DNA of 64,000 nucleotides from Escherichia coli. GTDB taxonomy: Bacteria > Pseudomonadota > Gammaproteobacteria > Enterobacterales > Enterobacteriaceae. The position numbers and the translations under genes are program-made. The notes under the pieces were generated by a model. It worked only from the letters and a program-made list of their open reading frames with translations. It did not search any database and had not been told where the DNA came from. Shown here piece after piece: positions 2,745 through 37,867 of the stretch (positions are counted from its first letter, which is position 1; every line of letters starts with the position of its first letter). Location of the stretch: assembly GCA_005400705.1 (NCBI GenBank), contig GCA_005400705.1_4079.1; one strand, 5' to 3'.

Positions 2745-3710
2745 GTGAAAAAGCTTGATTTAAATACAATTGCCGAAGAAGTTCTGGATGAATGTTTTGC
2801 TAATGAAGAAGTCAACACACTAGAAGCCTTAGATTTCGTTGAAGATAAAGATGAAAATGAAGGTAAAGTACAAAGCAGTTTCAAATATAATATTACACTT
2901 AAGCGACCACCAAATGTTTCCAATGAAGATCTAATTCGTGATATTCAAGCTGGTATCAATGTAAAGAAAAACACTGAACTGTTAGTTCGTTACAATTATG
3001 GACTGATTATTGATGTAGCAAGTAAATGTACTTGTTATATCCCATTTGAAGATAAGATTTCATATGGTGTTGAGGGGTTCATGAGAGCACTAAAAACCTT
3101 TGATCTTAATAAGAATGTGAAGTTCATTACCTATGCTTCTTCTAGTATTTACATGACAGTTTATAACGAAAGTTCTGACGCTAACTATATGGTACACTTC
3201 CCACGTTATATGAGTGTTCATAAGATCAAAGTAAAAAGATTCTGCCAGGAATATATGCGTAAACATGGTGTTCGCCCAACTCCTGAAATAATCTCAGAGG
3301 GTACTGGGATTGAGATTCAGCATGTTAATAATTGTTTGTTATTTCAAAGCGAATACACTTCACTGGATGCACCATTAGACGGTGTTACAGATGGTACACT
3401 AGGTGACATTATTCATTCACCTGCTTCTGATTTTAACCTCAATGTTGATAGTATTCGTGCACCTTTACGTTATGCTATCAATGAACTGACTAACGAATTG
3501 AGTACTAAAGAACGTGAGATTATCCAGCGTGTTCATGGTCTAGGTGAATATGAACCTGAAACGCTTCGTGAGATTGCTGATAATGGTTTTGTTGATGATA
3601 ATGGAAAATATGTTAAATCCCGTTCATCAATACACCGAAAGTACAGTGAAGCTATGCAAAAGCTTAAGAAGCTAGTACTTGCAAAAGGGTACGAATACGA
3701 AGATTTCTAA
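2745..3710 (+). CDS. sigma-70 family RNA polymerase sigma factor-like protein
   Basis: 321 aa, GTG start with RBS aggaga; region-2-like YGVEGFMRALKTFDLNKNVKFITYASSSIY and region-4-like LSTKEREIIQRVHGLGEYEPETLREIADN...VKSRSSIHRKYSEAMQKLKKL. Confidence 0.65.
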   Translation: MKKLDLNTIAEEVLDECFANEEVNTLEALDFVEDKDENEGKVQSSFKYNITLKRPPNVSNEDLIRDIQAGINVKKNTELLVRYNYGLIIDVASKCTCYIPFEDKISYGVEGFMRALKTFDLNKNVKFITYASSSIYMTVYNESSDANYMVHFPRYMSVHKIKVKRFCQEYMRKHGVRPTPEIISEGTGIEIQHVNNCLLFQSEYTSLDAPLDGVTDGTLGDIIHSPASDFNLNVDSIRAPLRYAINELTNELSTKEREIIQRVHGLGEYEPETLREIADNGFVDDNGKYVKSRSSIHRKYSEAMQKLKKLVLAKGYEYEDF

Positions 3711-3717
3711 AGAAAAA

Positions 3718-3744
3718 GGGTTGGCTTATGCCAACCTTTTTTTA
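3718..3744 (+). terminator. intrinsic terminator
   Basis: gggttggc-ttat-gccaacc hairpin followed by T7 run. Confidence 0.7.
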
Positions 3745-4268
3745 TGGGATGAAGTAAAAGTTTGTGATATAATTATCTTGTACAATTCTGTTGGCATGAT
3801 ATTCATGTACCTGATCCACTCGAAAACGTAGAGGGCAGTTGAGCAGTCCGACAGTGCGAACAGCAAAAGAAACCCGTTAGATGTGGGCATAGTTTGAACC
3901 CCTCACGGCAATGCGGCTGTATAAAGAACCACGTTAGGATAGCTGGTGGTTCCTTGATAGACATATAAGGATAACACCTTACGAATTATCTAAGGGAGAG
4001 TTATCAAATTTTGTACAGGAAAGTTGCGTCCAGAATTTGAGTACTCACATTAAGTATTTGATTGCATAGATACTTAATGAAGATACACTATGTTTAAAAG
4101 TGTAGACCGTCATATGAAACTGAAGTAGAGAGAAACAGGATGACCCGCTTTCGCACTCGTTATGAGTAATCTTCAATGCAATAGCTCTGATACCATCAGC
4201 GTCAAATTTCCCTCCTTGTGGGGGGGAAGAAAAATCCCTTCCTCAAATCCCGTCAATATTAAAAGTCC
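3745..4268 (+). ncRNA. candidate structured non-coding RNA (unclassified)
   Basis: About 520 nt without ORF, locally GC-richer, nested helices e.g. gataac-a-cctta-cgaattatc-taagg-gaga-gttatc and gaaccac...gtggttc. Confidence 0.25.
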
Positions 4269-4297
4269 TTGACAGTTATTAATCATTCGCGTAGAAT
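4269..4297 (+). promoter_or_regulatory. sigma70-type promoter TTGACA-17-TAGAAT
   Basis: ttgaca 4269-4274, tagaat 4292-4297. Confidence 0.5.
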
Positions 4298-4361
4298 ACG
4301 TAGTATTAGAAGCGAACAGACATCTCTTCGAGATGGATGATTAACCATTAAGGAATATCAA

Positions 4362-4571
4362 ATGAATTCAGTAATCTTTTTAGTAGTCGCTTTCTCTGTT
4401 AATTCCGGTGTACAAATTACCCCAATGAACTCAATGAACCAATGTTTTTCTGTACGTGACAGTACTTATGATCAAGTAAACCACATGTCACTTATGACAG
4501 TTAGTAAAGAAAGTATGTGGTGTTACAATAGTAATACTAACACAAAGCTTATTGTAGGACAAACTCAATGA
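4362..4571 (+). CDS. hypothetical protein
   Basis: 69 aa ORF, RBS aagga upstream, hydrophobic N-terminus. Confidence 0.45.
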   Translation: MNSVIFLVVAFSVNSGVQITPMNSMNQCFSVRDSTYDQVNHMSLMTVSKESMWCYNSNTNTKLIVGQTQ

Positions 4572-4798
4572 GTTATGGTGTTCGTTTTGAGATTCGTTCT
4601 ATTGTCATCAATGCAGAGAAACAAGTATCGTTGGATGGTGATATACGTGAAATTTATCTATCATGTATCCGTGCGAAATCTGAAGCAGATGCCTTAGTAC
4701 AAATGTATAGTTTTAACTTTTCAAATGGATTCTATTTGGTACGAGTTGTTGAAGTTAAAAAAGTAATTCTTGGTTGTTGCATAGAAGGAATAATGTAA
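4568..4798 (+). CDS. hypothetical protein
   Basis: 76 aa ORF, ATGA overlap with upstream gene. Confidence 0.45.
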   Translation: MSYGVRFEIRSIVINAEKQVSLDGDIREIYLSCIRAKSEADALVQMYSFNFSNGFYLVRVVEVKKVILGCCIEGIM

Positions 4799-5587
4799 AT
4801 GAGCACTATCGATGAACTGATTCAACGGAATTCAAAATATTACCAACCATCAGAAATTGTGGATAACATTACTAAATCTGAGTTTGGACCGAACACACGC
4901 AAACTCATTCATGTAATGTCACGTGATGGCTTTAAATGTGATTGTTGTGGTGAATCAAATGTAGTATTCACTTTACACAAGCACAGTACTAAAGAACGTT
5001 ATAAATTCAGACCTTATGTACTTAAAGGGAAACGTCTTGTACGCATGACGTTAGACCATAACGTACTGGACTGTCTTCAGGGCGGTAATGATAAAGAGAA
5101 CATGACTGCACTGTGTGAAGATTGTAACGCATTACGCCAGCATAAGTTTGCTGAATACAGTGAGTTTAAACACTGGTATCATAACGCGGATCGTTCAATC
5201 GAGCCTGACGTTAACTACTGCTTCATTGAGTACATTAAGAATGCAAAAGATACATACATTCTTAAATCAATGTCACCTATTACCGTGTTTCCTGAGAACC
5301 TATTCACTACATTAAAGAATAGTTTTATTGTAGGTGATATTGATGCATTCAAGTATTTTGACAAAGGTGCAAAACATTTTGAAATTCAATGTCTTAGTAC
5401 TGCACTATGTGAACTCATTAAAATTTACATAAAAGAGTGTTTGGGTATTGACAATGTACGTGTACCAGAGTATACTTTTTCTATTGAATTCGATTGTGAA
5501 TCAATCAAAGAGTTTGGAATTCTTTTCAATAAACAAATAGAACTTGCAATTCAAAACGAAATCAAGTACTATACTACTAACATTTAA
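4799..5587 (+). CDS. HNH-family endonuclease (homing endonuclease-like)
   Basis: 262 aa; CDCCG ... TLDHNVLDCLQGGNDKENMTALCEDCNALRQHK matches the HNH CxxC/H-N/CxxC/H pattern. Confidence 0.65.
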   Translation: MSTIDELIQRNSKYYQPSEIVDNITKSEFGPNTRKLIHVMSRDGFKCDCCGESNVVFTLHKHSTKERYKFRPYVLKGKRLVRMTLDHNVLDCLQGGNDKENMTALCEDCNALRQHKFAEYSEFKHWYHNADRSIEPDVNYCFIEYIKNAKDTYILKSMSPITVFPENLFTTLKNSFIVGDIDAFKYFDKGAKHFEIQCLSTALCELIKIYIKECLGIDNVRVPEYTFSIEFDCESIKEFGILFNKQIELAIQNEIKYYTTNI

Positions 5588-25921: not shown

Positions 25922-26293
25922 ATGAGTTACCGTGAGATATTTTCCATTATTTCAATTATTATGTTCAGTACTGGAACACTGGTATGGTTATTATATTTCT
26001 TCTGTATTAATCCAGTGTATAATATGTTATGTAATATTAAATCAAGTGCCGGATATATCACTTTTATGGTCTTTATGGGATATTATTGTCTAAGCATTTT
26101 AGGTGTTGTTTTGGTTGTTATATTTGATGTGGGGCCAAATAGTGATGGTATGGAAATACATGAATTAATAACCATGTTTGGATGTATGATACCAACAGCA
26201 CTACTGTTTGTAGCTACTGGTAGTGGATTGATAAAATTATATAATTATTTAAAATCCATTCATAATTCCATTCATAATAAGCGTATGTCATAA
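25922..26293 (+). CDS. small multi-pass membrane protein (family M)
   Basis: 123 aa, hydrophobic. Confidence 0.5.
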   Translation: MSYREIFSIISIIMFSTGTLVWLLYFFCINPVYNMLCNIKSSAGYITFMVFMGYYCLSILGVVLVVIFDVGPNSDGMEIHELITMFGCMIPTALLFVATGSGLIKLYNYLKSIHNSIHNKRMS

Positions 26294-26335
26294 TAAAAAA
26301 TCCAGTACTATTAAGTACTGGATGTATAAGGAGTT

Positions 26336-26998
26336 ATGATGAAATCAAAATTAGGTTTGTTTTATAAAAACTATTTTGTTAAACAACGTAAATTTATAAA
26401 AAAATATTTCTCTGGTGAGAAGTCTAGTCCTATAATTTTTAAAAGACCAAGTTATAATACTTACTTAGCTTGTGCTAAACAGTCTAAGAAATTTATTACT
26501 CTTTTAAATAAAAACAAAATTAAAGCTTCTTATGTTGAAACGAGAAGAAACTCATCAATAACTCCTGGTGATTTTATTGAGTACGGATGTTTCAATATTA
26601 AGTATAATGATAATACATACTTTATGGATATTGATTGTAATACATCCAATCTTTTTAACATTGTAGTAAATCCATTAAAACAATATAATGTTTATGGTGA
26701 TTCTATTATCAAATTAATCAAAAACAAAGATGGCTTTGATTTTGAAATAAATGTTTTAGATGATAATTTTGACGAAGTACCCGTAAACCCTGAAATCTGT
26801 GATATTTTAAACAGTTTAAAAGGTAGTACCTACAATATATCATCTGATTTAATGTTTCAGTACTCATTAATCCATAAAGATATTGAAAAGTATATTGAAT
26901 GCTCCAGAATTTTGAATTTTCTCTATGATGAATTTAAAAAGAGTTCTAAAATAACTGCATACACTTTGTACAATATTCCTAAAATGGTGAATCTTTAA
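26336..26998 (+). CDS. hypothetical protein
   Basis: 220 aa, RBS aaggag; 3' end converges on the minus-strand array. Confidence 0.55.
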   Translation: MMKSKLGLFYKNYFVKQRKFIKKYFSGEKSSPIIFKRPSYNTYLACAKQSKKFITLLNKNKIKASYVETRRNSSITPGDFIEYGCFNIKYNDNTYFMDIDCNTSNLFNIVVNPLKQYNVYGDSIIKLIKNKDGFDFEINVLDDNFDEVPVNPEICDILNSLKGSTYNISSDLMFQYSLIHKDIEKYIECSRILNFLYDEFKKSSKITAYTLYNIPKMVNL

Positions 26999-27604
26999 CA
27001 AATACAGTACTGGCAACTCCACCGTCTGTAATATATTGTCCAGTACTGTAAATTTGTATACCATCGGTTAAGTAAGTTCTGTATAAAGTTGCTGTAACAT
27101 ATACGTTATTCATATTCATCTCTATTGGTAGTACACATTTGGTATAGGCCGACACATCTGTTTGTGTACCTATACCCAATTGACCTGCGTTATCGCCTGT
27201 GTTATTACCAGTTGCGTAAACACCCAATGAAGTTATAATATGATTAGAAAAATATGAATAACCCAAACTCTTGAGATTCTCTACTGTACAACGTACCATC
27301 TGACATAAGGGCAAAAACTGTTGTATCAGATGAAGCTATTTTTGTTACAGAAGGTTGTATGTTCTGTTTTGATGATGTGATAATTCTTCGAAAGGGTAGC
27401 ATTGTATCCTCCAAATGTAAATCATTATTATATTTAGGACAAAAAAATGCCAGTACAAGGCACTGGCATAAAATCTAAGCAGAAGGCATATCCTTCATCT
27501 TAATAAATGAAAATTGTGTACCAGTATTTGTGGTTCCAATTTCTTTATTTCAGGAAGAGTTGGTTTAATATTTCCGTACTTGACCATTCTTGCAAAAGGT
27601 AACA
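26979..27604 (-). pseudogene. decayed ninth copy of the RCC1-like leader-peptide family
   Basis: Intact start MLPFARMVKYGNI near 27604 hits a stop after about 35 codons; C-terminal fragment ORF 26979-27314 still has GQLGIG. Confidence 0.5.
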
Positions 27605-27678
27605 TAATTCCCTCCTTTTATTTGTTATACTATATTTAATACAAATAAGAAAGCCAGTATCAAGTACTGGCTTTTACA
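27605..27678 (-). promoter_or_regulatory. family cassette: hairpin GCCAGTA-CTTGA-TACTGGC, TATAAT-like element, AAGGAGG RBS
   Basis: Conserved block preceding each RCC1-like paralog. Confidence 0.5.
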
Positions 27679-28869
27679 TTACAATTGTCTAGGTGTATCC
27701 AGTACATATCTATTTGTACGAGGACCACCATCATCATCAGTTCCGGTTGAATATATATTTTTCATATCAGCAGTTAGGAAAGTACGATACGAACCGCGAT
27801 ATATTTTTATTTTATCATACATAGAATATGTTATTTCTGACGGCAATGGACATGCAGTAAATTTACCAATGGTAACATCAGAACCAACACCCAATGTGCC
27901 AGCATAACTACTCGCATTTAAACCAGTTGCATATACACCTGCACTCGTAACTAGTATACTAGATTGTGTTGGGTATCCAGTATGAATTGAATACAAAGTA
28001 CCGGGTGGTAAGGTTGTACTATTGTTTCCTAAAACTCCATTAACAGTGCTAGATGTAGTTTTATTTCCCCATGCTCCATTATTAGCTAATCCACCAACTA
28101 GAAACTGACGTGCTCCTGTATTTGGATTCTCCACTAAAGCACTGACTGAACCCATTGAGCATACAGTGTATTGTAACGTTTTTGTGTATGTTGTACTTGG
28201 CTGATATAAAGTATATTCATTATATAAAGTCCATGTAGTGCTGGAACTTATACCGGATGTACCACCACCAATATATAAATTATTTTGTGTATCAAAAAAC
28301 ATTGCACAGCTATTTGTTGACATTATTTGTGCAATATCAACATCTGGTGTTACAGCTTTAACAAATGAACCATCGGTTATTTGTTGAGTTTTTCCAGTAC
28401 CATCAGCGAATTGTTTAGCCCCACTCCAACCAGTACTCCATATTGTATTATTATCCATTAAGAAAGTAAACCACGTAGTACCTGCATACATCTGTTTAAT
28501 TGAAGTACTTGAACTTTGTGTGAACAAATTTTCAATATATTGGTTATAACTTAAAAATGATGTAGTACTAGTTTCTAAACCAATATGACTACCATATCCA
28601 CAATAAAAATAATTTAAGTCATTATCTTGTACTAACAAAGTTCCTTCTGACATCCAACAATCGTTAACGTTTTCTCTAATTAATGTCCATGTTCTTAATG
28701 CAGTGTTGTTTCCTCTCCCAAACTTCCCAAAACTATTATTGCCTCGTGCGTATAGTTGACCATCAGTATAAAGTACAACAACATCACTATTGATTGGTAT
28801 TATTTTCTTAATTTGAAGAGGCTCAGGTGTAATATTTCCATAATCAAACATTCTAACAAAAGGTAACAT
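27679..28869 (-). CDS. RCC1-like repeat (beta-propeller) protein with MLPFVRMFDYGN leader, paralog 1
   Basis: 396 aa from ATG with RBS aaggagg; G-x-F/L-G-x-G repeats; ORF-track extension MPVLDTG... reads through the upstream hairpin. Confidence 0.7.
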   Translation of the reverse strand: MLPFVRMFDYGNITPEPLQIKKIIPINSDVVVLYTDGQLYARGNNSFGKFGRGNNTALRTWTLIRENVNDCWMSEGTLLVQDNDLNYFYCGYGSHIGLETSTTSFLSYNQYIENLFTQSSSTSIKQMYAGTTWFTFLMDNNTIWSTGWSGAKQFADGTGKTQQITDGSFVKAVTPDVDIAQIMSTNSCAMFFDTQNNLYIGGGTSGISSSTTWTLYNEYTLYQPSTTYTKTLQYTVCSMGSVSALVENPNTGARQFLVGGLANNGAWGNKTTSSTVNGVLGNNSTTLPPGTLYSIHTGYPTQSSILVTSAGVYATGLNASSYAGTLGVGSDVTIGKFTACPLPSEITYSMYDKIKIYRGSYRTFLTADMKNIYSTGTDDDGGPRTNRYVLDTPRQL

Positions 28870-28939
28870 ATTTCCTCCTTTATTCATTATACTATATTTA
28901 ATACAAAAAGAAATGCCAGTATCAAGTACTGGCATAATA
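28870..28939 (-). promoter_or_regulatory. family cassette (hairpin, TATAAT, AAGGAGG)
   Basis: Near-identical to the other inter-paralog blocks. Confidence 0.5.
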
Positions 28940-30118
28940 TTATCGGTTAAATTTAAAATCTGTTATGTGTGTCCATGTATGATTTAATGGTGTACTCATT
29001 GGTGTAAAGCCAGCAGGGTCTGACAAAGCTGTACCACGTGCGTACATAAATTGATTGCCAGTACAATCCATTATAGCATAAGAACGTGTTGCTGTGCCAC
29101 ATTTGAACCCAACTGCACTACTTGGGGTCGGTAATACTTCAAATGTAGGTGCATTTGAACTACCACCCCCATCTTTTGTTCCAGCTATGTACAGAACTCC
29201 ATTAGTATCAATGATTAAGTTAGTCCAATATGCTTGTTCTCGACCAGCATAAAAATATGTTAAATCACCGGGTACAAATGGTAACGTTCCTTTATATATT
29301 GTGGTATTAACATTCACTGGTGCACCAGCTACACCCCATGAACTCATATAGTTTCTCCCACTTGCGTAGAATGTAGTTCCTTTACCGTAAAGTATTAATG
29401 TTGCTTGACTTGTTCGCATTGCATTATATTCAAACTCAGGATCATCAGTAGCGTCCTTAAAAATCTGTGTCCATGTTGTTATATTGCCAGTAGTTGTAAC
29501 ACCCATTTGATAATAATAATTATCACCAGTAGCATAGAATTCTTTAGGGCCAGTTTGTACAATTGCATTCCCATTAGTTAACCAAAAATCTAATGTATTA
29601 GTCTTGATCTTGGTTGGTGTGTAATTCGCCACGGTATTTCCTTTTCCGAAATAACCATTAGCGTTATTTCCATGACCCCATAAATCACCATTAGTTGTGC
29701 GTAGGAATAATGTACCAGTATTGAATCCAACTTTTTCTATAGTACTTATGTCAATACCAACAGCAGTGTACTTCGTTGTAAAATCTTGAAAAGTACTCCA
29801 ATAATTTGATGAACCATTAAACATGGTTTGTCTGCCAGTGTACTTCACTTTATTATCGTTAGTGATAAGTAATGTCCCCCACACTGACGCGAACATTAAC
29901 TTAACATTTTCCATAACAAAGTATGGCTTACCGTATGCTGACGCGGTAGTGTTTAAACCTAATAGTTGTCCATCATTACTACAACCCCATACTTCGCCGT
30001 TATCCAAAAGCATCAACATAGTAGGTTTGCCAGATGATACATCCAAAAAGAAATCTTTTGGTGTTGGTACACCAGGTGTGATATTCCCATAATCAAACAA
30101 TCTTACAAAAGGTAACAT
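28940..30118 (-). CDS. RCC1-like repeat protein with MLPFVRLFDYGN leader, paralog 2
   Basis: 392 aa; conserved leader and RBS. Confidence 0.7.
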   Translation of the reverse strand: MLPFVRLFDYGNITPGVPTPKDFFLDVSSGKPTMLMLLDNGEVWGCSNDGQLLGLNTTASAYGKPYFVMENVKLMFASVWGTLLITNDNKVKYTGRQTMFNGSSNYWSTFQDFTTKYTAVGIDISTIEKVGFNTGTLFLRTTNGDLWGHGNNANGYFGKGNTVANYTPTKIKTNTLDFWLTNGNAIVQTGPKEFYATGDNYYYQMGVTTTGNITTWTQIFKDATDDPEFEYNAMRTSQATLILYGKGTTFYASGRNYMSSWGVAGAPVNVNTTIYKGTLPFVPGDLTYFYAGREQAYWTNLIIDTNGVLYIAGTKDGGGSSNAPTFEVLPTPSSAVGFKCGTATRSYAIMDCTGNQFMYARGTALSDPAGFTPMSTPLNHTWTHITDFKFNR

Positions 30119-30189
30119 ATTTCCCTCCTTTATTCATTATACTATATTTAATACAAATAAGAATGCCAGTATCAAGTACTGGCATTATG
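30119..30189 (-). promoter_or_regulatory. family cassette (hairpin, TATAAT, AAGGAGG)
   Basis: gccagtacttgatactggc hairpin and tatagtataatgaataaaggaggg. Confidence 0.5.
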
Positions 30190-31299
30190 TTATTTTGGTA
30201 AATCAATTTTAGTAAAGACTGCAACATCTTCACTTGCTCCTGGTATTGCGTAATAAGAACCAGTACTATACACATCTCCATTTTTGGTTAATATCGATGT
30301 CAAACCATCACTAAAAAGAACATCCCTAATCTCACTAACTTCAACTGGTAATTGTAAATTGGTAGCACTATATATAGCACCAGTTTGAGAATTGTTTAAT
30401 CCCAAACCACGGTTCGCCCCAACACCCTTCTGATATGTACTAGTAATTACCATTTGTGTAGCAGTATTTAAGGCAGGTGAATTCGTCATAAACAACGGAG
30501 AACTATTAGGCAAAGTACTTACAGGAACGGCACGGAATGTAGTCGTACCTGAACTAAGAAAGTTTGGAGTTTGACCACATACGAAATATGATGTACCATT
30601 ATAGTAATTGAATGCATTACCACCAATGGCTGCATCGATTACACCAGAACTACGCAATCCCCAAGTGTTAATTTGTGTTTGGTTCCCCGTACCATGCTGT
30701 CCACTACTATTCCATCCAGAACTATATAGCTTATTATCTAATGTAAGATACATACTATCATTCGCATTGGTCATTACTTTACGAACGTTCGTAGCACATT
30801 GAGTTAATGTGTAAATTGATGAGGAACCAATACCCAAAGAACCACGATATCCATTATCTCCTGCACCATAGAGTACTGAATTAGTGCTAAGTACAAATAT
30901 TAAACCATTTGTACATACAATATTAGCAATTTCACTTACTGGTATAGCATTGGTAAACCAATTAGTCCTTTCAACTAATACAGTACTGTAAGAAGTAGTT
31001 GTAGAAGATGAGAACCAGTACGTTTGACCTGATGTCCATATCGTATTATCATTTTTAATAATAACAAGTGTACGATCACCCACGAAAAAATTAGAAACAT
31101 CTGTACTTACTAATATCCATGAAGATACCGTGTTGGTATTACCATTTCCAGATTCACCACCTTGATTTCTACCTATGTAATATAAATCATGTGAATCAGT
31201 CAATAAGAATTGACCTTGTGTAGAAGCACCAACTTTAATTATATTTTTAGGACCAGGTACAATATTTCCGTACTTAACCATTCTTGCAAAAGGTAACAT
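30190..31299 (-). CDS. RCC1-like repeat protein with MLPFARMVKYGN leader, paralog 3
   Basis: 369 aa; GSLGIG, GQHGTG motifs; only 10 nt downstream of paralog 4 (likely co-transcribed). Confidence 0.7.
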   Translation of the reverse strand: MLPFARMVKYGNIVPGPKNIIKVGASTQGQFLLTDSHDLYYIGRNQGGESGNGNTNTVSSWILVSTDVSNFFVGDRTLVIIKNDNTIWTSGQTYWFSSSTTTSYSTVLVERTNWFTNAIPVSEIANIVCTNGLIFVLSTNSVLYGAGDNGYRGSLGIGSSSIYTLTQCATNVRKVMTNANDSMYLTLDNKLYSSGWNSSGQHGTGNQTQINTWGLRSSGVIDAAIGGNAFNYYNGTSYFVCGQTPNFLSSGTTTFRAVPVSTLPNSSPLFMTNSPALNTATQMVITSTYQKGVGANRGLGLNNSQTGAIYSATNLQLPVEVSEIRDVLFSDGLTSILTKNGDVYSTGSYYAIPGASEDVAVFTKIDLPK

Positions 31300-31309
31300 A
31301 ATTCTCTCC

Positions 31310-32440
31310 TTAATTTAATAATGCCCCTGGCAAATCCACTTTGACGAATTGTGCATATGCTGAGGAATTTTGATCAAAGTTTGGTCCCAATCCATAAAAT
31401 GAGCTAATGCCGTCTTCATTTGTGTATATGATATAAACGTTCTTTACATCATTTCCGCATATAAATCGAATGTCTTTCGTTTGTGTTCCCGCTGGAACAT
31501 TACGAAGGTTCACAACGCCATTACTTGCATTGTTATCAGCCGACGCAATTGGTAATTGATTTTGACCATATTGACCACGCATATTTTTTGCATCTAAACC
31601 AAACACAGTATTTGATACCGCACCAACTTTCAAAAATGAACCAAAACTATTATTGAATGACTTTGGAAATGTACCACTATAAACACTTCTCCCATCTGAT
31701 AATACCGCTGAACTGAATTTCCCGTTATTCGATATGGCAAATTCATTGTAAGGAAGTGTACCCATTTTGGTATATACAGAATATGAATTAGTGGAAGTAT
31801 TATCAATAATCTTATTACCATTATATCCAATACCATACTGGTATCCGTCTGCATCTTGAACTATACACAAAGGACCACTTGGGGTTTGTGTCAACGAAAC
31901 AACACGTTCAACTTGTATATCACCAAATGTATTTCTTCGCCATGTTCTATCTATTATAGTACTAGTATTACCCAAAGATAATTCCACACTATATAATAGA
32001 TTGTTTTCAGTAAAAATGGCAACATAATATGCGTGGTTAATAACTTGCTTCATCCCAGCATCAATAACTTCCTGTGGAATATGATCAGTAACATCCAACC
32101 AATCAAGGTTAGATGATGCAATATCTGGAGTACTGAATTTGTCAAATCTAGTTGAGCCACAAACTAGCACTCTATCATCATTTGTCAAAGCCACTGTGCT
32201 AGTCTGCATATTAGAACTGAATGATTTAACATTACTAATGTTAGACTTGTACCAACCCTTATCAGCAGCACCCACCGTGAATCCGGTTCCCATTGATCCA
32301 CTTGTACTTGTACCATAAGCCCACATCTCACCACTATATGTTAGTGCCATACAGTGGCTTCCATTTGCTTGGAAATCCTTTATACCAGTGGGAGCAACCA
32401 CTGTATTCCCATAATCAAACATTCTAACAAAAGGTAACAT
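31310..32440 (-). CDS. RCC1-like repeat protein with MLPFVRMFDYGN leader, paralog 4
   Basis: 376 aa from ATG 32440 (RBS ggag); ORF-track start 32455 adds 5 codons without an RBS. Confidence 0.65.
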   Translation of the reverse strand: MLPFVRMFDYGNTVVAPTGIKDFQANGSHCMALTYSGEMWAYGTSTSGSMGTGFTVGAADKGWYKSNISNVKSFSSNMQTSTVALTNDDRVLVCGSTRFDKFSTPDIASSNLDWLDVTDHIPQEVIDAGMKQVINHAYYVAIFTENNLLYSVELSLGNTSTIIDRTWRRNTFGDIQVERVVSLTQTPSGPLCIVQDADGYQYGIGYNGNKIIDNTSTNSYSVYTKMGTLPYNEFAISNNGKFSSAVLSDGRSVYSGTFPKSFNNSFGSFLKVGAVSNTVFGLDAKNMRGQYGQNQLPIASADNNASNGVVNLRNVPAGTQTKDIRFICGNDVKNVYIIYTNEDGISSFYGLGPNFDQNSSAYAQFVKVDLPGALLN

Positions 32441-32515
32441 AACTAAAATCTCCATATAATAATTATAATGTATTTACAAAAAAATACCAGTACATATTTC
32501 AGTACTGGTATAATG
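32441..32515 (-). promoter_or_regulatory. family cassette variant (hairpin ACCAGTACTGAAATATGTACTGGT, TATAAT)
   Basis: Palindromic hairpin plus tataat. Confidence 0.45.
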
Positions 32516-33688
32516 TTATGGTAAAATAATAGCTTGTAACGAACTCATACCCAATGTTGGGACACTCGCCTGTGGTGCTGGTGCATTCACTTTTGGTGAT
32601 GAAACCGCATAAGTCATTCCTGTACCCAAATCTGGATCAAAAACTACAGAACAATAATCCCCATTGTATATAAGTCCATTAGTATATCCTTGTGCACTTT
32701 GAATGCATTTCGTGAACGTACCAATGTCAGTAGTGGCATTTATTAAGTTCCTCCCACGGTAGCCACAGGTGTATATGAAATTATCAACACCTATGTACAT
32801 ACTCGCAGAACCAGAAGAACTACATAGATAAGACATATAAGCACGCATGTTTTTAGGAGCAACTGACAATGTACCAGCATAGAATTTATTATTCATACTC
32901 GAAATATCACCATCACCCAAAGCACCAAAACTCCCCCAACCAGTACCATAATATCTCTTATCACTCAAGAATATAATACAGTTGTTATTACACATCTTGA
33001 CTTGATATATCAATGAAGGATCAACCCCAGGGAATGATTCAGTGTATGTTAGAACAGCCAGATCAGTACTAGCATTACATTGATGATATGTATTAGTACC
33101 AGCGGACAATATTGTACCATCAACTAATAGAATCCTCGAAGTGCCAGTACCAGCAATACAAGCAACAGCATTACCTGTATATATTTGTCTGAAAGTAAAG
33201 AAACCAACAGTCTTACTCCCCTGTCCACTCCAACCAGTATTATCAACACCACATGCCCATACTGAACCATCTTGCATGATCATCATTACACCATAGCGTT
33301 CTATCGAAATATAGACAATCTTCGTAGTATCAACTGCACTAAATCTAGAAGTTATATCAGTCCAAACCTTTACACTCACCGCCGTCGCACCGAAAGTAGG
33401 ATCTTCCCCTGCTATCATTATCCTACCATTGTTAGTCAGATACATTGTCTGACTATAACCAGTACTACAAAACTTAACACTATCAGTCTCTGGAACTTTT
33501 AACCACTCGTTGTAACGTGTTACGTTAGTGTTATTACCTAACTGATAATAGTTATTCATCCCAGATACATATAACACACCATCCTTTATTAAACTATAAG
33601 TCGCACTATAGTCACTACAGGTATAACGTGTACCCACAGGTCGCTCAACGACGTTCCCATAATCAAACATTCTAACAAAAGGTAACAT
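32516..33688 (-). CDS. RCC1-like repeat protein with MLPFVRMFDYGN leader, paralog 5
   Basis: 390 aa; GALGDG motif. Confidence 0.7.
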   Translation of the reverse strand: MLPFVRMFDYGNVVERPVGTRYTCSDYSATYSLIKDGVLYVSGMNNYYQLGNNTNVTRYNEWLKVPETDSVKFCSTGYSQTMYLTNNGRIMIAGEDPTFGATAVSVKVWTDITSRFSAVDTTKIVYISIERYGVMMIMQDGSVWACGVDNTGWSGQGSKTVGFFTFRQIYTGNAVACIAGTGTSRILLVDGTILSAGTNTYHQCNASTDLAVLTYTESFPGVDPSLIYQVKMCNNNCIIFLSDKRYYGTGWGSFGALGDGDISSMNNKFYAGTLSVAPKNMRAYMSYLCSSSGSASMYIGVDNFIYTCGYRGRNLINATTDIGTFTKCIQSAQGYTNGLIYNGDYCSVVFDPDLGTGMTYAVSSPKVNAPAPQASVPTLGMSSLQAIILP

Positions 33689-33768
33689 AATTAAATCTCC
33701 AAAATTAAAATAATTAGATAGTATTTACAAAAAATACCAGTACATATTTCAGTACTGGTATCGTAGCG
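33689..33768 (-). promoter_or_regulatory. family cassette variant
   Basis: Same hairpin type as 32441-32515. Confidence 0.45.
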
Positions 33769-34911
33769 TTAAAATGGCATCTTAACCTCTTTATATACTA
33801 ATATATCACCGGATAAACCAGGAAACGCAGAACCATTACCACATGCATATATAGTACTATCATTCCACACTGCTTGATGGTAATTGCCTATAGTACATTT
33901 ATAATTCGATAAATCAGTCACACCAGGTGTTAGTACATAATATACTGGTCCACTAGGTAAATTAAAATCAAATCTACCAAAGTAGTTCAAACCAGATGAA
34001 TAGGACTTGTCATTAGCAAATATTACAGTACCATCTTCTGTAAAAGAACTGTGAGAAATGTCTTTGAGATTGTTCACAACACCAGACGGTATTGATGTAT
34101 TCAACGTAAAGGACGTCAATGGTGCTGCACTTGGTGTGTTGTTCGCCGTGTAACCATAATATGCATAACCAGCTACATATACACTCGAATCTGAACAAAA
34201 TAAAAATGCACTCCTATAACCCAACCTAATACTCTCTATAGTCTTACTAAAAGTAACTTTAGTAAAGGTAGGAACTAAACCACTATATCCTACCCCACAT
34301 GTACCAAAATCATTCTTCCCAGTACTGTACAATTCGTTATTATTTGTAAGGTAAAATGACGCAGCAGCACCGCTATCTAAAGTACTGTAAACGTCTTTTA
34401 CATTACTCGCAATCAATTTAAATGCACTCAATACGGTAGCCGAACCATTGTTAGACAGCGTTGTTGAATCCGTGCCTTGTCCTATTGTATATAAATCTCC
34501 AGTACTAGTCAAAACAAATATACCATTAGTCGCCATAACAATTCTGTCATTCTTTAAATTAAATGAACTAAAAAGTGTACTTATATCAGTAAAGGTAGTA
34601 TAACGCCCACTCTGCCCTATACTCGATAAATTCCCACTCAAATAAACCTTATTATCATTACCAACAGCTACATAACAACCCCACCCAGCATATATCTGAT
34701 CAATGCCTTGTATCGGTATTTGTAACCATTCACTACCAGTTACCGAAGCAGTACTTCCAGTTCCAAGTTCACCAGAGTTATTAGCTCCGAATACATATAA
34801 ATTCCCACTATCCGATAAAACAACTGTATTACCAACTCCAGTTTTTATATCCTTGATACCATTCTTAGGAGCAACATTCCCATAATCAAACATTCTAACA
34901 AAAGGTAACAT
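33769..34911 (-). CDS. RCC1-like repeat protein with MLPFVRMFDYGN leader, paralog 6
   Basis: 380 aa; GELGTG motif. Confidence 0.7.
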   Translation of the reverse strand: MLPFVRMFDYGNVAPKNGIKDIKTGVGNTVVLSDSGNLYVFGANNSGELGTGSTASVTGSEWLQIPIQGIDQIYAGWGCYVAVGNDNKVYLSGNLSSIGQSGRYTTFTDISTLFSSFNLKNDRIVMATNGIFVLTSTGDLYTIGQGTDSTTLSNNGSATVLSAFKLIASNVKDVYSTLDSGAAASFYLTNNNELYSTGKNDFGTCGVGYSGLVPTFTKVTFSKTIESIRLGYRSAFLFCSDSSVYVAGYAYYGYTANNTPSAAPLTSFTLNTSIPSGVVNNLKDISHSSFTEDGTVIFANDKSYSSGLNYFGRFDFNLPSGPVYYVLTPGVTDLSNYKCTIGNYHQAVWNDSTIYACGNGSAFPGLSGDILVYKEVKMPF

Positions 34912-34983
34912 ATTTCCCTCCTTTATTCATTATACTATATTTAATCAAAAAGAAAAGCCAGTACTTGAGTACTGGCATAGTTT
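34912..34983 (-). promoter_or_regulatory. family cassette (hairpin, TATAAT, AAGGAGG)
   Basis: gccagtactcaagtactggc hairpin, tatagtataatgaataaaggagg. Confidence 0.5.
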
Positions 34984-36111
34984 TCAAAAAGGTAAATCAA
35001 TTTGCTTAGTAATAATAGTATCTAACGGTATTGAACACAATGAGAAATTCTTTCCACCCGTATTTTCAGGATTATATCCATTCATCCATACATTATTACC
35101 TTCGTAAAATGTATTCCAGTATAAAGCCCCACTATATCGTGTATTCGAATTGAACGATGGAAAGTTGAATTCTTGGAATGATGTAAAATATGGAATGGAA
35201 CTTGAACTACTTCCCGTAAATGGGGTATACCCAGTTGCTATTAGTTTGTTTGTATCTGCATTAATTAAAAATACAACACTAGTCGAATAGTCCAACGAAT
35301 CAGGATGATATATATTACTCATATCACCTATAGTAAAACCAACATCAAAAACTTTACTATGTGCACCACTACCAGCAAAAGTAGTTCCAGTTGCATATAT
35401 TTTATTATCAGATGTTATCATTACAAAACCAGCACCAGAAACAAAACTGCATTTTATATCATAAGATATATCATCAAACAACGGAACAAATGTGGTTGCA
35501 TCACCCGATGTTGCTTTAACTTGAAAGCTGTTATTTGAACCTGAACCATATACAGTTCCATCGTTTTTAATCTTAAACAATGTATCGCCAAGGTAACCGC
35601 CAAATATATTATCCACATTAGTGTCAAGTACAGTCCACGCTGAAACATAATTTTTATGTCCTAAACCTAATGCACCACTTCGATTCCATCCTCTTCCATA
35701 AAGTGTTCCGTCTTTCATTAATATAAATGCTGTATAACCACATAACATTTTTTTAATTTGGGTAACATCTATACCAGTGAAATACACACCCCAGTCAGTA
35801 TATCCTTGTTGGAAAGTATCAGAATTCGTGAATGCATATGTTGAACCTGAACCATATATTTTATCACCTTTAATAACAACGGAAAACAATCCTAACCATA
35901 AGTCATCAACTTCAGTTGTGATTTGTTGAACTGCTCCTAACGATACAAACTGTGTACTTAAACCCGCATTATAGTTTGAATCTTCACCGTGTGCATATAC
36001 AGTGCCATCTTGCATTAGAAACATTTCAAGAGTGTAACTAACAACACTTTTCTTTATATTATTAACTTCGATTATATTCCCATAATCAAACATTCTAACA
36101 AAAGGTAACAT
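34984..36111 (-). CDS. RCC1-like repeat protein with MLPFVRMFDYGN leader, paralog 7
   Basis: 375 aa; GALGLG motif. Confidence 0.7.
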   Translation of the reverse strand: MLPFVRMFDYGNIIEVNNIKKSVVSYTLEMFLMQDGTVYAHGEDSNYNAGLSTQFVSLGAVQQITTEVDDLWLGLFSVVIKGDKIYGSGSTYAFTNSDTFQQGYTDWGVYFTGIDVTQIKKMLCGYTAFILMKDGTLYGRGWNRSGALGLGHKNYVSAWTVLDTNVDNIFGGYLGDTLFKIKNDGTVYGSGSNNSFQVKATSGDATTFVPLFDDISYDIKCSFVSGAGFVMITSDNKIYATGTTFAGSGAHSKVFDVGFTIGDMSNIYHPDSLDYSTSVVFLINADTNKLIATGYTPFTGSSSSSIPYFTSFQEFNFPSFNSNTRYSGALYWNTFYEGNNVWMNGYNPENTGGKNFSLCSIPLDTIITKQIDLPF

Positions 36112-36183
36112 AATTCCCTCCTTTATTCATTATACTTTATTTAATACAAATAAGAATTCCTGTATCGAGTACTGGCATTCAAT
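36112..36183 (-). promoter_or_regulatory. family cassette (hairpin, TATAAT, AAGGAGG)
   Basis: gccagtactcgatacagg hairpin-like, tataatgaataaaggagg. Confidence 0.45.
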
Positions 36184-37332
36184 TTATTGTAAAAAGGACA
36201 TATCTACTTCTGTATAACTAAGAATGTTTTGACCAGCAATTCCACCCATTACTACTATTGCATACCCACAATAATATAATTTCCCAGTGTCCGTAAGTAT
36301 AAGTGAACCAGAAGGTGTTCTTACCAAATTACACGAACTATTAAAAGAAGTATACGAAGGAGTATAGGAGTACTGATCAATATTATTACCAACACCTAAT
36401 TGACCACCCCTATTCGAACCAGATGCATAAAGTACTTCATCTGCTTTGACAATATGTGATGCCATGTTACCAACACATGCATATACACCATATACCCCTG
36501 TACTCAATAATGTAGGAGTCTTGTATTGAATATCAGTACTAGTAGATGTTCCACCTGTGCCAAATTCATTACCATATTGTGCTCCGTACTGCTTCCCACA
36601 TGCGTACAAATTATTATCGGACTTAATAAAAAATGTACTCTGATAACTTACATCAAAATCTATAACATCCGAAGAAATCATCGTTACCCCAGTAATCGAA
36701 GTTTGATTACCAGTACCCAACTGGTAGTAATAGTTAAAACCACAACCCCATAAAGTATTATCTTCTCGCAAATAAATGTTACCAACAGCCTTTTTAACAG
36801 ATGTTATAGTACTGACCTTCTTGAAGGTATTAAATGAATCAATGTTAGTACCATCTCCAAAGGAGGATATGTTCGATGCGTTATTAGCACCACAACAATA
36901 TAATGTCCCATCCTTCAGTACTAAATTTACCTTCATATCATTAAAACTGCTCATATACTCAATATCAGATACACTAATACCACCTGATGTTATCCACGTA
37001 GTACAGTCCGTCCATAACGTCTTCCTATCAGTTACCCCAGTAAATGCCTCCGTGTTACCAGTGATAAACACTTTACCAGTACCCTTTTCTTCATACAATT
37101 GACAATCACTACTGTTATCTTCCAATAAAACCCTCTGTACATTCTCTGCACAAAGAATAAATTTACTCGATGCTACACCTGTTCCAGTACCCCAATTCGT
37201 CGCAGAAGATGCATACAACTTATGTGTTAGTGTATCATGCAAATACATAGAACCACTAGAATATATTTTAAAACGCCCAGAGTTGGTAGGTGCTTCATTC
37301 CCATAATCAAACATTCTAACAAAAGGTAACAT
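36184..37332 (-). CDS. RCC1-like repeat protein with MLPFVRMFDYGN leader, paralog 8
   Basis: 382 aa; GQLGVGNN motif; first gene of the minus-strand block. Confidence 0.7.
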   Translation of the reverse strand: MLPFVRMFDYGNEAPTNSGRFKIYSSGSMYLHDTLTHKLYASSATNWGTGTGVASSKFILCAENVQRVLLEDNSSDCQLYEEKGTGKVFITGNTEAFTGVTDRKTLWTDCTTWITSGGISVSDIEYMSSFNDMKVNLVLKDGTLYCCGANNASNISSFGDGTNIDSFNTFKKVSTITSVKKAVGNIYLREDNTLWGCGFNYYYQLGTGNQTSITGVTMISSDVIDFDVSYQSTFFIKSDNNLYACGKQYGAQYGNEFGTGGTSTSTDIQYKTPTLLSTGVYGVYACVGNMASHIVKADEVLYASGSNRGGQLGVGNNIDQYSYTPSYTSFNSSCNLVRTPSGSLILTDTGKLYYCGYAIVVMGGIAGQNILSYTEVDMSFLQ

Positions 37333-37375
37333 AATTCCCTCCTTTATTCATTATATCATATTTACCCCATAACCC

Positions 37376-37404
37376 TTGACATCCTTTCAGTACTGGTGTA
37401 CTAT
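37376..37404 (+). promoter_or_regulatory. candidate promoter TTGACA-17-TACTAT in divergent region
   Basis: ttgaca 37376-37381, AGTACTG in spacer. Confidence 0.4.
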
Positions 37405-37429
37405 AGAAGGAATATAAGGAGAACTACAC

Positions 37430-37657
37430 ATGACAGCTACACTTAAGTACTACATTAATACTCTAAATGAACTAGAGTACGCGAAGTTTCTCGCGGATTG
37501 TTCGTGGCTAATAGAGCTAAAAACACATAACAGTACTGGATGTAACCTTATGCTGAACAGTGCACTTGATACCCTTGTAGTGAGTATTTTACACAGCAAC
37601 ATCTGCGTGGATAGCAATAAACAATTATCAAAAATCTTAGTACTGGTAGCTATATGA
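37430..37657 (+). CDS. small protein, tandem family A
   Basis: 75 aa, RBS aaggag. Confidence 0.5.
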   Translation: MTATLKYYINTLNELEYAKFLADCSWLIELKTHNSTGCNLMLNSALDTLVVSILHSNICVDSNKQLSKILVLVAI

Positions 37658-37866
37658 ACACTATGAACATTAAACAGTACTACATCGATGCACTACCAAC
37701 AAAAGGTCTACGAGAAAGCCTACTGTATACACAAAATAATTTTATACACTACAAACGTTATCCTAAACTCCTGAACTCGTACAGGAATAATAACATAAGA
37801 AATGCTTTACAAGGGGTAGAAAGTATGCAATACTATTACATCCTTACCCTTTTAATCGAGTACTAA
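37654..37866 (+). CDS. small protein, tandem family A
   Basis: 70 aa; QYYIDALP N-terminus, C-terminal LTLLIEY. Confidence 0.5.
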   Translation: MNTMNIKQYYIDALPTKGLRESLLYTQNNFIHYKRYPKLLNSYRNNNIRNALQGVESMQYYYILTLLIEY

Positions 37867-37867
37867 T

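What the first reader, a model, noticed from the sequence alone, without database searches (positions are those of the whole stretch)
26979..27604. Ninth family member is a pseudogene remnant
An intact start and leader (MLPFARMVKYGNI) near 27604 runs into a stop after about 35 codons. A separate frame (26979-27314) still encodes a C-terminal propeller fragment containing GQLGIG. This indicates ongoing birth and death of copies in the array.
Basis: seen in the sequence. Interest (0 to 1): 0.4.

Follow-up and report, generated by a model that had tools for sequence, protein, structure and literature searches.

The report
Two dead RCC1-like gene remnants
The flagged stretch of this giant E. coli phage genome holds the leftovers of two different genes, not one, each gutted by its own internal deletion; this is ordinary gene decay at the end of a fast-changing array of related virion-protein genes.

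Summary
The window comes from an Asteriusvirus jumbo coliphage; its flanks are 98% identical to phAPEC6. The minus strand carries eight intact RCC1-like seven-bladed propeller genes (37332..27679).

- **Remnant A (27605..27475).** This is the phAPEC6 gp010 ortholog with 1039 bp removed. It keeps the ribosome-binding site, the start, 23 native codons, the last 61 nt and the terminator. It reads as a 36-codon ORF.
- **Remnant T (27402..26979).** It is the 121Q gene 235+234 homolog with 729 bp removed at a TGGG microhomology.
- **Both deletions are real.** The T junction recurs in seven isolate genomes. Both junctions recur in two metagenome contigs.
- **Remnant T looks neutral.** After the deletion it shows 11 nonsynonymous against 5 synonymous private changes, and phage G17 has added stops.

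"Birth and death" of copies is supported: relatives carry 8 to 14 or more copies in shuffled order.

One unexpected result lies outside the window. The frame offset between T's two halves predates the deletion. Full-length T copies in relatives share a one-base insertion that has been kept through saturating synonymous divergence under purifying selection. That suggests recoding or a two-piece protein, not a dead gene.

The parts
27606..27674 (-). 5' module of remnant A. It holds the terminator hairpin of upstream gene g8 (27674..27650), a promoter-like box TTAAATATAGTATAAC, and a Shine-Dalgarno AAAAGGAGGG.
   Evidence: It is the same module as in front of the intact array genes, but slightly degraded: TATAAT has become TATAAC and there is a 1-nt insertion, relative to L024, L025 and phAPEC6.
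27536..27605 (-). Remnant A, native 5' part: ATG plus 23 codons and 1 nt of the phAPEC6 gp010 ortholog (MLPFARMVKYGNIKPTLPEIKKL).
   Evidence: 67/70 nt identical to phAPEC6 gp010 (L002 5345..5276). The three differences fall in leader codons 5 and 8.
27535..27536 (-). Deletion junction A. 1039 bp are missing relative to phAPEC6 gp010 (L002 4237..5275), with 1-nt microhomology. 1039 mod 3 = 1, so the downstream part is read out of frame.
   Evidence: Global alignment. The identical junction string occurs in metagenome contigs L024 and L025. It is absent as a contiguous stretch from 50,697 phage records and from IMG/VR.
27475..27535 (-). Remnant A, native 3' end: the last 61 nt of the gp010 ortholog including its TAG (27477..27475). 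In the remnant's frame it reads EPQILVHNFHLLR and stops at TGA 27497..27495.
27447..27469 (-). Intrinsic-terminator-like hairpin ATGCCAGTGCCTTGTACTGGCAT followed by a T-run. This is the native terminator of the gp010 ortholog.
   Evidence: 10-bp stem, 5 GC pairs; identical in phAPEC6.
27270..27402 (-). Remnant T, native 5' part: a second leader ATG at 27402 plus 44 codons (MLPFRRIITSSKQNIQPSVTKIASSDTTVFALMSDGTLYSRESQE). A degenerate module and the GGAGG Shine-Dalgarno lie just upstream, at 27412..27408.
   Evidence: It is homologous to 121Q gene 235 (T positions 1-133).
27262..27269 (-). Deletion junction T. 729 bp are missing relative to 121Q (T positions 134-862). There is an exact TGGG microhomology at 27265..27262 and an imperfect 8-nt AGTnTGGG. 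The ORF opened at 27402 then runs out of frame to a stop at 27246..27244.
   Evidence: The same junction occurs in phAPEC6, SP27, ECO103 4-12-1, EC22.5-2, JP4, G17 and Sharanji and in L024 and L025.
26979..27261 (-). Remnant T, native 3' part: the last 93 codons plus stop, covering roughly the last one to two propeller blades (..YSYFSNHIITSLGVYATGNNTGDNAGQLGIG..VFVKDSPF*). It lies in the +1 frame relative to the T leader and has no start of its own.
   Evidence: No Pfam hit on its own. The last 20 nt overlap the convergent + strand gene 26336..26998.
27679..37332 (-). The eight intact array members. Starts are at 37332, 36111, 34911, 33688, 32440, 31299, 30118 and 28869; lengths are 369-396 aa. 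They are RCC1-like seven-bladed propellers with an N-terminal MLPF(V/A)RMxxYGN leader.

Best explanation
The stretch 26979-27674 is the decayed downstream end of a tandem array of RCC1-like propeller genes in an Asteriusvirus jumbo phage. It contains two independent gene remnants.

Remnant A was the ortholog of phAPEC6 gp010, a 389-aa protein detected in virions. An illegitimate, almost homology-free deletion removed 1039 bp of its interior. What is left is the expression module, 23 native codons, the last 61 nt and the terminator. If it is still expressed, the product is a 36-residue leader-only peptide.

Remnant T was the terminal array gene, homologous to 121Q genes 235+234. A 729-bp deletion between TGGG microhomologies removed 243 codons. 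The removed stretch included the site where the parent gene changes reading frame, so the surviving N- and C-terminal pieces sit in different frames. Neither piece can make a propeller.

Shown: the homology, the junctions, their recurrence in independent sequences, and relaxed selection on T after the deletion.

Inferred: the deletion mechanism (replication slippage or illegitimate recombination), and that the two parent genes were dispensable in this lineage.
For: Identity of the locus.
- The flanks are 97-98% identical to phAPEC6, SP27 and 121Q.
- The intact paralogs match Pfam RCC1, RCC1_2 and RLD, and PHROG 4219.
- An AlphaFold2 model of g6 has pTM 0.81 and matches UVR8 and RCC1-like domains at TM 0.78.

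Remnant A.
- blastn and a global alignment show that the window lacks L002 4237..5275, which lies inside intact gp010.
- All 14 phage records that match the junction query carry its two halves in two separate places rather than joined.
- The identical junction occurs in two metagenome contigs from different assemblies.

Remnant T.
- The 729-bp gap relative to 121Q has the same junction in seven isolate genomes.
- The Salmonella phages SD-1, SD-2, SD-6 and SD-15 carry other, independent deletions in the same gene.

Selection.
- Full-length T copies show 41 synonymous and 10 nonsynonymous variable sites.
- The deleted lineage shows 5 synonymous and 11 nonsynonymous private changes. Two of these are stop codons in G17, which has also gained 12-nt and 6-nt deletions. 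Fisher's exact test gives p=0.0005.

Two separate genes.
- There are two leaders, two Shine-Dalgarno sites, and a native stop plus terminator between them.
Against: Selection on remnant A could not be measured, because the window, L024 and L025 differ too little. A residual role for the 36-aa leader peptide is therefore not excluded. Its module, start codon and terminator are all still present.

The count of private changes for remnant T is small (16 sites) and counts sites, not inferred events on a tree.

No reads were available, so heterogeneity within the source phage population is unknown.
Confidence: 0.9

Rival explanations
1. One ninth gene has a start at 27605 and a C-terminus at 26979-27314, and is broken by a single frameshift or deletion.
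For: Both pieces are family-like, lie on the same strand and are adjacent.
Against: The 27605 ORF is followed by its own native 3' end, a TAG stop and a terminator. A second ribosome-binding site and leader sit at 27402. The two pieces map to two different genes in phAPEC6, SP27 and slurp01, where the gp010 ortholog is intact and lies upstream of the T gene.
Confidence: 0.03
2. Assembly or sequencing artefact. The two deletions are collapses or errors, and the real phage has intact genes.
For: No reads were available. Junction A is absent from all isolate genomes in the phage collection. One metagenome assembly (OEQX) breaks exactly at the T junction.
Against: The T junction is identical in seven independently sequenced isolates. 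Both junction strings occur in two metagenome contigs from different assemblies that are only 97.5-98.6% identical to the window. The junctions lie in non-repeated sequence with only 1-4 nt of homology, which is not what a repeat collapse produces.
Confidence: 0.03
3. The remnants are retained because they still do something. One possibility is that remnant A makes a 36-aa leader-only peptide that competes for, or regulates, whatever the shared MLPF leader binds. Another is that the module acts only as a transcription unit or terminator.
For: Remnant A keeps the promoter-like box, a strong Shine-Dalgarno, the ATG and the terminator. The 36-codon ORF is unbroken in the window, L024 and L025.
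Against: The window's copy of the module is degraded relative to L024 and L025: TATAAT has become TATAAC and there is an insertion before the Shine-Dalgarno. The out-of-frame tail is an accident of the deletion. Remnant T evolves as if neutral. The three sequences are too similar for ORF preservation to carry weight.
Confidence: 0.07

Closest known systems
phAPEC6 gp010 (QDF13641.1, 389 aa) and its orthologs in SP27, slurp01, ELP-22, G17 and JP4
   Same: It is the parent of remnant A. It shares the 5' module, the first 23 codons (67/70 nt), the last 61 nt and the terminator. gp010 was detected in phAPEC6 virions by mass spectrometry (PMC7247149, Table 1).
   Different: The window lacks the central 1039 bp, which is about 346 codons and the whole propeller. 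Leader codons 5 and 8 read ARMVKY, like window paralog g6, instead of GRMLKY.
121Q genes 235+234 (YP_009101822/821), with the same layout in slurp01, ELP-22, PBECO4, UB and SHEFM2K
   Same: It is the full-length form of remnant T: 95-97% nucleotide identity over the retained parts, and the same convergent overlap with the downstream + strand gene.
   Different: These copies are 1153 nt with a one-base insertion separating a 74-codon ORF from a 298-codon ORF. The window has lost positions 134-862, including that site.
SP27 EO157G_2130, annotated 'putative DNA condensation protein' (321 nt), and JP4_CDS0214
   Same: They are the same remnant T with the same junction, 99.8% identical over 636 nt. 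Public records therefore already contain this remnant, annotated as a small CDS.
   Different: In those phages the neighbouring gp010 ortholog is intact. The annotations do not flag a pseudogene.
RCC1-like domain proteins (RCC1, UVR8, HERC1/2 RLDs, RPGR); PHROG 4219 'regulator of chromosome condensation'
   Same: The intact array members share the seven-bladed propeller fold and the sequence repeats.
   Different: Identity is only 11-18%. The phage proteins carry a short unstructured N-terminal leader. Nothing supports Ran-GEF or chromatin functions, so 'DNA condensation' is only a name carried over by annotation (PMC7247149, PMC5259590). The remnants themselves no longer have the fold.
T4 internal proteins with a shared N-terminal capsid-targeting sequence. 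This is an analogy from my own knowledge and was not tested.
   Same: The idea is shared: a short conserved N-terminal tag on otherwise divergent, low-copy virion proteins encoded in a locus that varies between close relatives.
   Different: There is no sequence similarity. Cleavage, capsid location and injection are untested here. The leader could equally anchor the propellers to tail whiskers.

Membership tests
RCC1-like domain (seven-bladed propeller; Pfam PF00415, PF13540, PF25390) | Seven tandem repeats of about 50-60 aa folding into a closed propeller | tested here: not met
   The intact paralogs meet it: RCC1_2 scores 32.8-43.9 bits against a cut-off of 22, and the model matches UVR8 at TM 0.78. 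The remnants do not. A keeps 23 native residues. T keeps 44 N-terminal and 93 C-terminal residues in different frames. The C fragment alone has no Pfam hit.
Asteriusvirus MLPF-leader RCC1-like array gene (PHROG 4219) | N-terminal leader MLPFxRMxxYGN preceded by the array's own terminator, promoter-like box and Shine-Dalgarno | tested here: met
   Remnant A has MLPFARMVKYGN and a near-consensus module. Remnant T has MLPFRRIITSSK, the divergent leader typical of its ortholog group, and a degenerate module.
Asteriusvirus MLPF-leader RCC1-like array gene (PHROG 4219) | Uninterrupted ORF of about 370-400 codons | tested here: not met
   The ORFs opened by the two leaders are 36 and 52 codons, against 369-396 for the eight intact members.
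Pseudogene or gene remnant | Clear homology to a gene that is intact elsewhere, plus a disabling lesion | tested here: met
   For A, the two halves of the junction query lie in two separate places in all 14 matching phage records, and the intervening gp010 ortholog was confirmed intact at 1170 nt in six phages. A's lesion is a 1039-bp deletion. For T, an intact ortholog P0001 exists (382 aa, 76% identity). T's lesion is a 729-bp deletion.
Pseudogene or gene remnant | Relaxed (neutral) evolution after the lesion | tested here: inconclusive
   For T, 11 nonsynonymous and 5 synonymous private changes do not differ from the neutral expectation (binomial p=0.39) and differ from full-length copies (Fisher p=0.0005). 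G17 adds two stops and two small deletions. The numbers are small. For A, there are too few differences to test.
Programmed +1 ribosomal frameshift (considered for the full-length parent of remnant T, not for the window itself) | Frame change conserved in position across diverged homologs, with purifying selection in the 0 frame upstream and the +1 frame downstream | tested here: met
   121Q and metagenome copy L017 are both 1153 nt with the same inserted base and the same 0-frame TGA. The N part has dS 1.31 and dN/dS 0.18. The C part has dS 1.78 and dN/dS 0.06. Wrong-frame controls give 0.7-2.6. Within Asteriusvirus, 5/5 variable sites upstream are synonymous in frame 0, and 36/46 downstream are synonymous in frame +1.
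Programmed +1 ribosomal frameshift (considered for the full-length parent of remnant T, not for the window itself) | Recognisable shift site (slippery P-site codon plus a slow A-site codon or stop) and a trans-frame protein product | tested here: inconclusive
   The site is A UGG GUK CGG SUW UGA. It contains the rare CGG codon (1.4 per 1000 codons) and an in-frame UGA. L017 has a prfB-like CUU UGA but 121Q has GUA UGA, so no common slippery codon exists. The protein product cannot be tested with these tools. A two-piece protein is not excluded.

The most novel reading that the evidence does not exclude
The "frameshifted" full-length form of the terminal array gene in relatives (121Q 235+234, PBECO4, slurp01 and others, plus a metagenome copy at 82% protein identity) is not a pseudogene. 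It would be a recoded gene, read through a conserved programmed +1 frameshift at A-UGG-GUK-CGG-SUW-UGA, or alternatively an obligate two-piece propeller.

A linked idea is that the MLPF leader, which is unstructured in the model and homogenised within each genome, is a shared virion-incorporation tag for an exchangeable set of propellers.
Probability: 0.5. Interest if true: 0.55.

Novelty: new member of a known kind. Interest (0 to 1): 0.3.

Why it matters
For the finding itself, the main value is practical. These remnants are annotated in public records as small "DNA condensation protein" CDSs. They should be marked as gene remnants, and the array end should be read as two dead copies.

They also give a clean, dated example of how a phage paralog array loses members. 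The losses here are small-homology internal deletions, not only whole-cassette recombination.

The wider interest lies in two by-products.
- A one-base frame offset in the parent gene has been maintained through saturating synonymous divergence. This is a testable candidate for +1 recoding in a jumbo phage.
- There is evidence that a 12-residue leader and its 5' module evolve in concert across otherwise 19%-identical virion propellers. That points to a common docking or packaging partner.

Tried and rejected
Only the leader and 5' module match (51 nt at 96%). The bodies are too diverged, about 19% protein identity. Orthologs from relatives were used instead.
- **Pfam on the C fragment.** No hit.
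- **IMG/VR scan for junction A.** Nothing found. An IMG/VR scan with the T protein returned only 121Q itself.
- **Sigma-70 promoter scan of the array.** No enrichment: 57 sites found against 57.9 expected. The conserved box is therefore called promoter-like only by position. Terminator-like hairpins are enriched, 15 against 4.0 expected.
- **Rfam and tRNA scans of the whole window.** Nothing found.
- **"Junction A is private to this phage."** I first concluded this. I withdrew it when two metagenome contigs showed the same junction.
- **Leader as the N-terminal "velcro" strand that closes the propeller.** Rejected. Residues 1-19 are low-confidence and unstructured in the model.
- **Alternative starts for the downstream T ORF.** There is no conserved ATG, GTG or TTG between the +1-frame stop and the annotated ATG. 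The ATGA overlap in 121Q is in the wrong frame.
- **A short recombination patch spreading the frameshift.** Rejected, because 121Q and L017 differ at many positions immediately around the inserted base.
- **Literature.** No paper was found linking 121Q-type phages to a frameshift in these genes.

Full report
**What the window is**

The first 20 kb of the window are 97-98% identical to the jumbo coliphages phAPEC6, SHEFM2K, SP27, JP4 and 121Q, all genus Asteriusvirus. The region around the finding matches the same phages.

On the minus strand, eight intact genes run from 37332 down to 27679. Their starts are at 37332, 36111, 34911, 33688, 32440, 31299, 30118 and 28869.

These genes match Pfam RCC1, RCC1_2 and the RCC1-like domain, and PHROG 4219. 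An AlphaFold2 model of the 369-aa member at 30190-31299 has pLDDT 79 and pTM 0.81. It is a seven-bladed propeller whose best PDB matches are UVR8 (TM 0.78), the HERC1/2 RCC1-like domains, RPGR and RCC1.

The array is already known in the literature:
- phAPEC6 is reported to encode eleven RCC1-like proteins. Six of them (gp003, 005, 006, 007, 009, 010) were detected in virions by mass spectrometry (PMC7247149, text and Table 1).
- The CBB paper lists the multi-copy homologs in 121Q and PBECO4, and the virion protein GAP32 gp001 (PMC5259590).
- Their function is unknown. "DNA condensation" is a name carried over from eukaryotic RCC1.

**Checking the observation**

An ATG at 27605 opens a 36-codon ORF, MLPFARMVKYGNIKPTLPEIKKLEPQILVHNFHLLR*. 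An ORF in another frame (27314..26979) encodes a propeller C-terminus containing GQLGIG.

- a native stop codon at 27477..27475;
- a terminator-like hairpin at 27469..27447;
- a second Shine-Dalgarno and a second leader ATG at 27402, MLPFRRIITSSKQNIQPSVTKIASSDTTVFALMSDGTLYSRESQEFGLFIFF*.

**Remnant A (27605..27475)**

A global alignment to phAPEC6 shows the following:
- The window matches the first 70 nt of gp010 (389 aa; L002 5345..4176) at 67 of 70 positions.
- It then jumps to the last 61 nt of gp010. L002 4237..5275, which is 1039 bp, is absent.
- The junction is at 27536|27535 and has 1 nt of microhomology.
- 1039 is not a multiple of three. The native tail is therefore read out of frame and stops at a TGA 18 nt upstream of the native TAG.
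- The native terminator follows unchanged.

No isolate genome has this junction. In all 14 phage records that match a 91-nt query spanning the junction, the two halves lie in two separate places. In the six of these phages examined directly, an intact 1170-nt gp010 ortholog lies between them. IMG/VR has no match.

However, two metagenome contigs from different assemblies, OERM01000102.1 and OERV01002943.1, carry the exact junction string. They are 97.5-98.6% identical to the window over the region. The deletion is therefore real and circulates in nature.

In those contigs the leader reads MLPFGRMLKYGN, as in gp010. In the window it reads MLPFARMVKYGN, as in the window's own paralog at 31299. 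This suggests a short leader conversion. The window's copy of the promoter-like box is also slightly degraded.

**Remnant T (27402..26979)**

Relative to 121Q, the window lacks 729 bp, which are T positions 134-862. The junction lies in a TGGG microhomology at 27265..27262.

The same junction is present in phAPEC6, SP27, ECO103 4-12-1, EC22.5-2 and JP4 at 99-100% identity, and in G17 and Sharanji at 94%. It is also present in the two metagenome contigs.

Other phages carry different deletions in the same gene:

| Phage | Deletions in T |
|---|---|
| SD-15 | 68 nt |
| SD-2 | 27 + 192 nt |
| SD-6 | 223 + 149 nt |
| SD-1 | 445 + 72 nt |

The retained C-terminal 93 codons match residues 289-380 of an intact 382-aa metagenomic ortholog, P0001, at 76% identity.

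**Is T really dead here?**

Among full-length copies, variable sites are overwhelmingly synonymous: 41 synonymous against 10 nonsynonymous.

In the lineage with the 729-bp deletion, private changes are 5 synonymous against 11 nonsynonymous. Two of the eleven are stop codons in G17, which has also gained 12-nt and 6-nt deletions.

The two patterns differ (Fisher p=0.0005). The second does not differ from the neutral expectation (binomial p=0.39). The counts are small, but they point to neutral decay after the deletion.

**An unexpected point about the parent of T**

Every full-length T copy in isolate phages is 1153 nt, which is 384 codons plus one base. These include 121Q, slurp01, ELP-22, PBECO4, UB, SHEFM2K, CRJP21 and E9.1. 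Each is annotated as a 74-codon ORF plus a 298-codon ORF.

I expected an old pseudogene. The data say otherwise:
- 121Q against PBECO4 gives dN/dS of 0.06, with 28 synonymous and 6 nonsynonymous differences. That is the same range as the intact gp010 orthologs, 0.00-0.14.
- The protected frame switches between positions 216 and 232. This is at the 0-frame TGA and upstream of the annotated ATG of the second ORF.
- A metagenome copy at 82% protein identity (L017) has the same length, the same inserted base and the same TGA. Compared with 121Q:

| Region | dS | dN/dS |
|---|---|---|
| N part, frame 0 | 1.31 | 0.18 |
| 33-nt gap between the TGA and the annotated ATG, +1 frame | 0.75 | 0.11 (3 synonymous, 2 nonsynonymous) |
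| C ORF, +1 frame | 1.78 | 0.06 |
| Wrong-frame controls | – | 0.7-2.6 |

- A more distant ortholog (P0001; L019-L021) is intact and reads ..IWCGYETTLIKK.. at this point.

The +1 offset has therefore been maintained under selection. This indicates recoding or a two-piece protein.

I could not find a slippery site common to the copies. The site is A UGG GUK CGG SUW UGA. CGG is the rarest arginine codon in the window, at 1.4 per 1000 codons. L017 has a prfB-like CUU UGA, but 121Q has GUA UGA.

This site is not in the window, because the 729-bp deletion removed it. It does explain why the window's N- and C-terminal pieces are in different frames even though the deletion is a multiple of three.

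**The array as a whole**

- The bodies of the window's paralogs are on average 19% identical. Their first 12 residues are 92% identical, with identical codons even at synonymous sites.
- Six of the eight intact genes are preceded by the same kind of module: a terminator hairpin, a TTAAATATAGTATAAT-type box and a strong Shine-Dalgarno. The first gene has the box and Shine-Dalgarno only, and the gene at 31299 has no module.
- Within the 64-kb window, this module occurs only in the array.
- Leaders track the genome, not the ortholog. The window has VRMFDY, phAPEC6 has [GA]RMVKY, and EJP2 has [VA]RMLEY. This holds even between orthologs that are 97-99% identical elsewhere.
- In the model, the leader (residues 1-19) is unstructured.
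- Gene content and order differ between phages. EJP2 has 14 copies. The window's genes find their best orthologs in EJP2 or phAPEC6 in a shuffled order. No record covers more than 49% of the array, although the flanks are 98% identical.

One inference from these facts, not tested, is that the leader is a shared tag for incorporation into the virion.

**Verdict**

The finding itself is ordinary gene decay in a known phage gene family. The conserved frame offset in the parent gene and the concerted evolution of the leader are the parts worth following up.

Noticed in passing
Not in the window (site deleted). L003 (121Q) 4608..4832 + 3680..4576; L017 1309..2461; L007; L004; L005: Full-length copies of the terminal array gene share a one-base insertion (..TGG G TKC GG..) followed by a 0-frame TGA. 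Both halves, and the 33-nt stretch between the TGA and the annotated ATG, are under purifying selection in their respective frames, even between copies with dS above 1. This is a candidate programmed +1 frameshift or a two-piece protein.
   Followed up: yes
window 27605, 28869, 30118, 31299, 32440, 33688, 34911, 36111, 37332 (minus strand); L010, L011: The 12-residue leader and its codons are homogenised within each phage genome (window VRMFDY, phAPEC6 [GA]RMVKY, EJP2 [VA]RMLEY). Meanwhile the propeller bodies are about 19% identical. Orthologs that are 97-99% identical between phages still carry their own genome's leader. This is concerted evolution or co-evolution with a shared partner.
   Followed up: partly
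window 27650-27674, 28913-28935, 30162-30186, 32484-32511, 33733-33762, 34957-34976, 36158-36176: Six of the eight intact array genes, and both remnants, are preceded by their own terminator hairpin plus promoter-like box plus strong Shine-Dalgarno. The first gene (37332) has the box and Shine-Dalgarno but no upstream hairpin. The consensus module occurs nowhere else in the 64-kb window. The gene at 31299 is the exception: it follows 32440's gene after a 10-nt spacer with no module, and this adjacency is conserved in EJP2.
   Followed up: partly
window 27679-28935: The mechanical ORF for the last intact gene (418 aa) starts at an upstream ATG inside the terminator and promoter module. By homology to the other leaders and the position of the Shine-Dalgarno, the real start is at 28869 (396 aa).
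   Followed up: yes
window 26000-38000 versus the phage collection: The array is a mosaic. No record covers more than 49% of it at megablast level, while the flanks are 98% identical to several phages. The best orthologs of the eight genes are split between EJP2 and phAPEC6 and are in a different order. One gene (33769-34911) has no close ortholog in the loci examined.
   Followed up: partly
window 26979-26998: The 3' end of remnant T overlaps the 3' end of the convergent + strand gene 26336..26998 by 20 nt. That gene is 220 aa, PHROG 34359, function unknown. The overlap is conserved in relatives and may constrain the last codons of the remnant.
   Followed up: no
L026 (OEQX01000005.1, start of a 178-kb contig) and L023 (OEQX01001432.1): In one metagenome assembly, a long contig begins exactly at the equivalent of the T deletion junction (window 27265). 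A short contig from the same assembly carries the full-length T. This would fit both alleles co-occurring in that sample.
   Followed up: partly
L013, L014, L015, L008 (Salmonella phages SD-2, SD-6, SD-1, SD-15): Four closely related Salmonella-propagated Asteriusviruses each carry a different set of deletions in the T gene (68; 27+192; 223+149; 445+72 nt). This suggests either rapid loss of the gene in that host or problems with those assemblies.
   Followed up: partly
L018 2704..3862 (Logan SRR30543657 contig): A T ortholog at 69% identity has a different one-base insertion (GAC C GGG ACG, around codon 36), again directly before GGG. It rests on a single contig, so a sequencing error cannot be excluded.
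   Followed up: no
L010 10640..11670 (phAPEC6 gp007 + gp008); 121Q genes 238, 237, 239+240: Other array members in relatives are also short or split. gp007 is 269 aa, is followed by a small ORF, and was nevertheless detected in virions with 17.5% coverage. 121Q genes 239 and 240 overlap. These may be further remnants or further recoded genes. None has a counterpart in the window.
   Followed up: no
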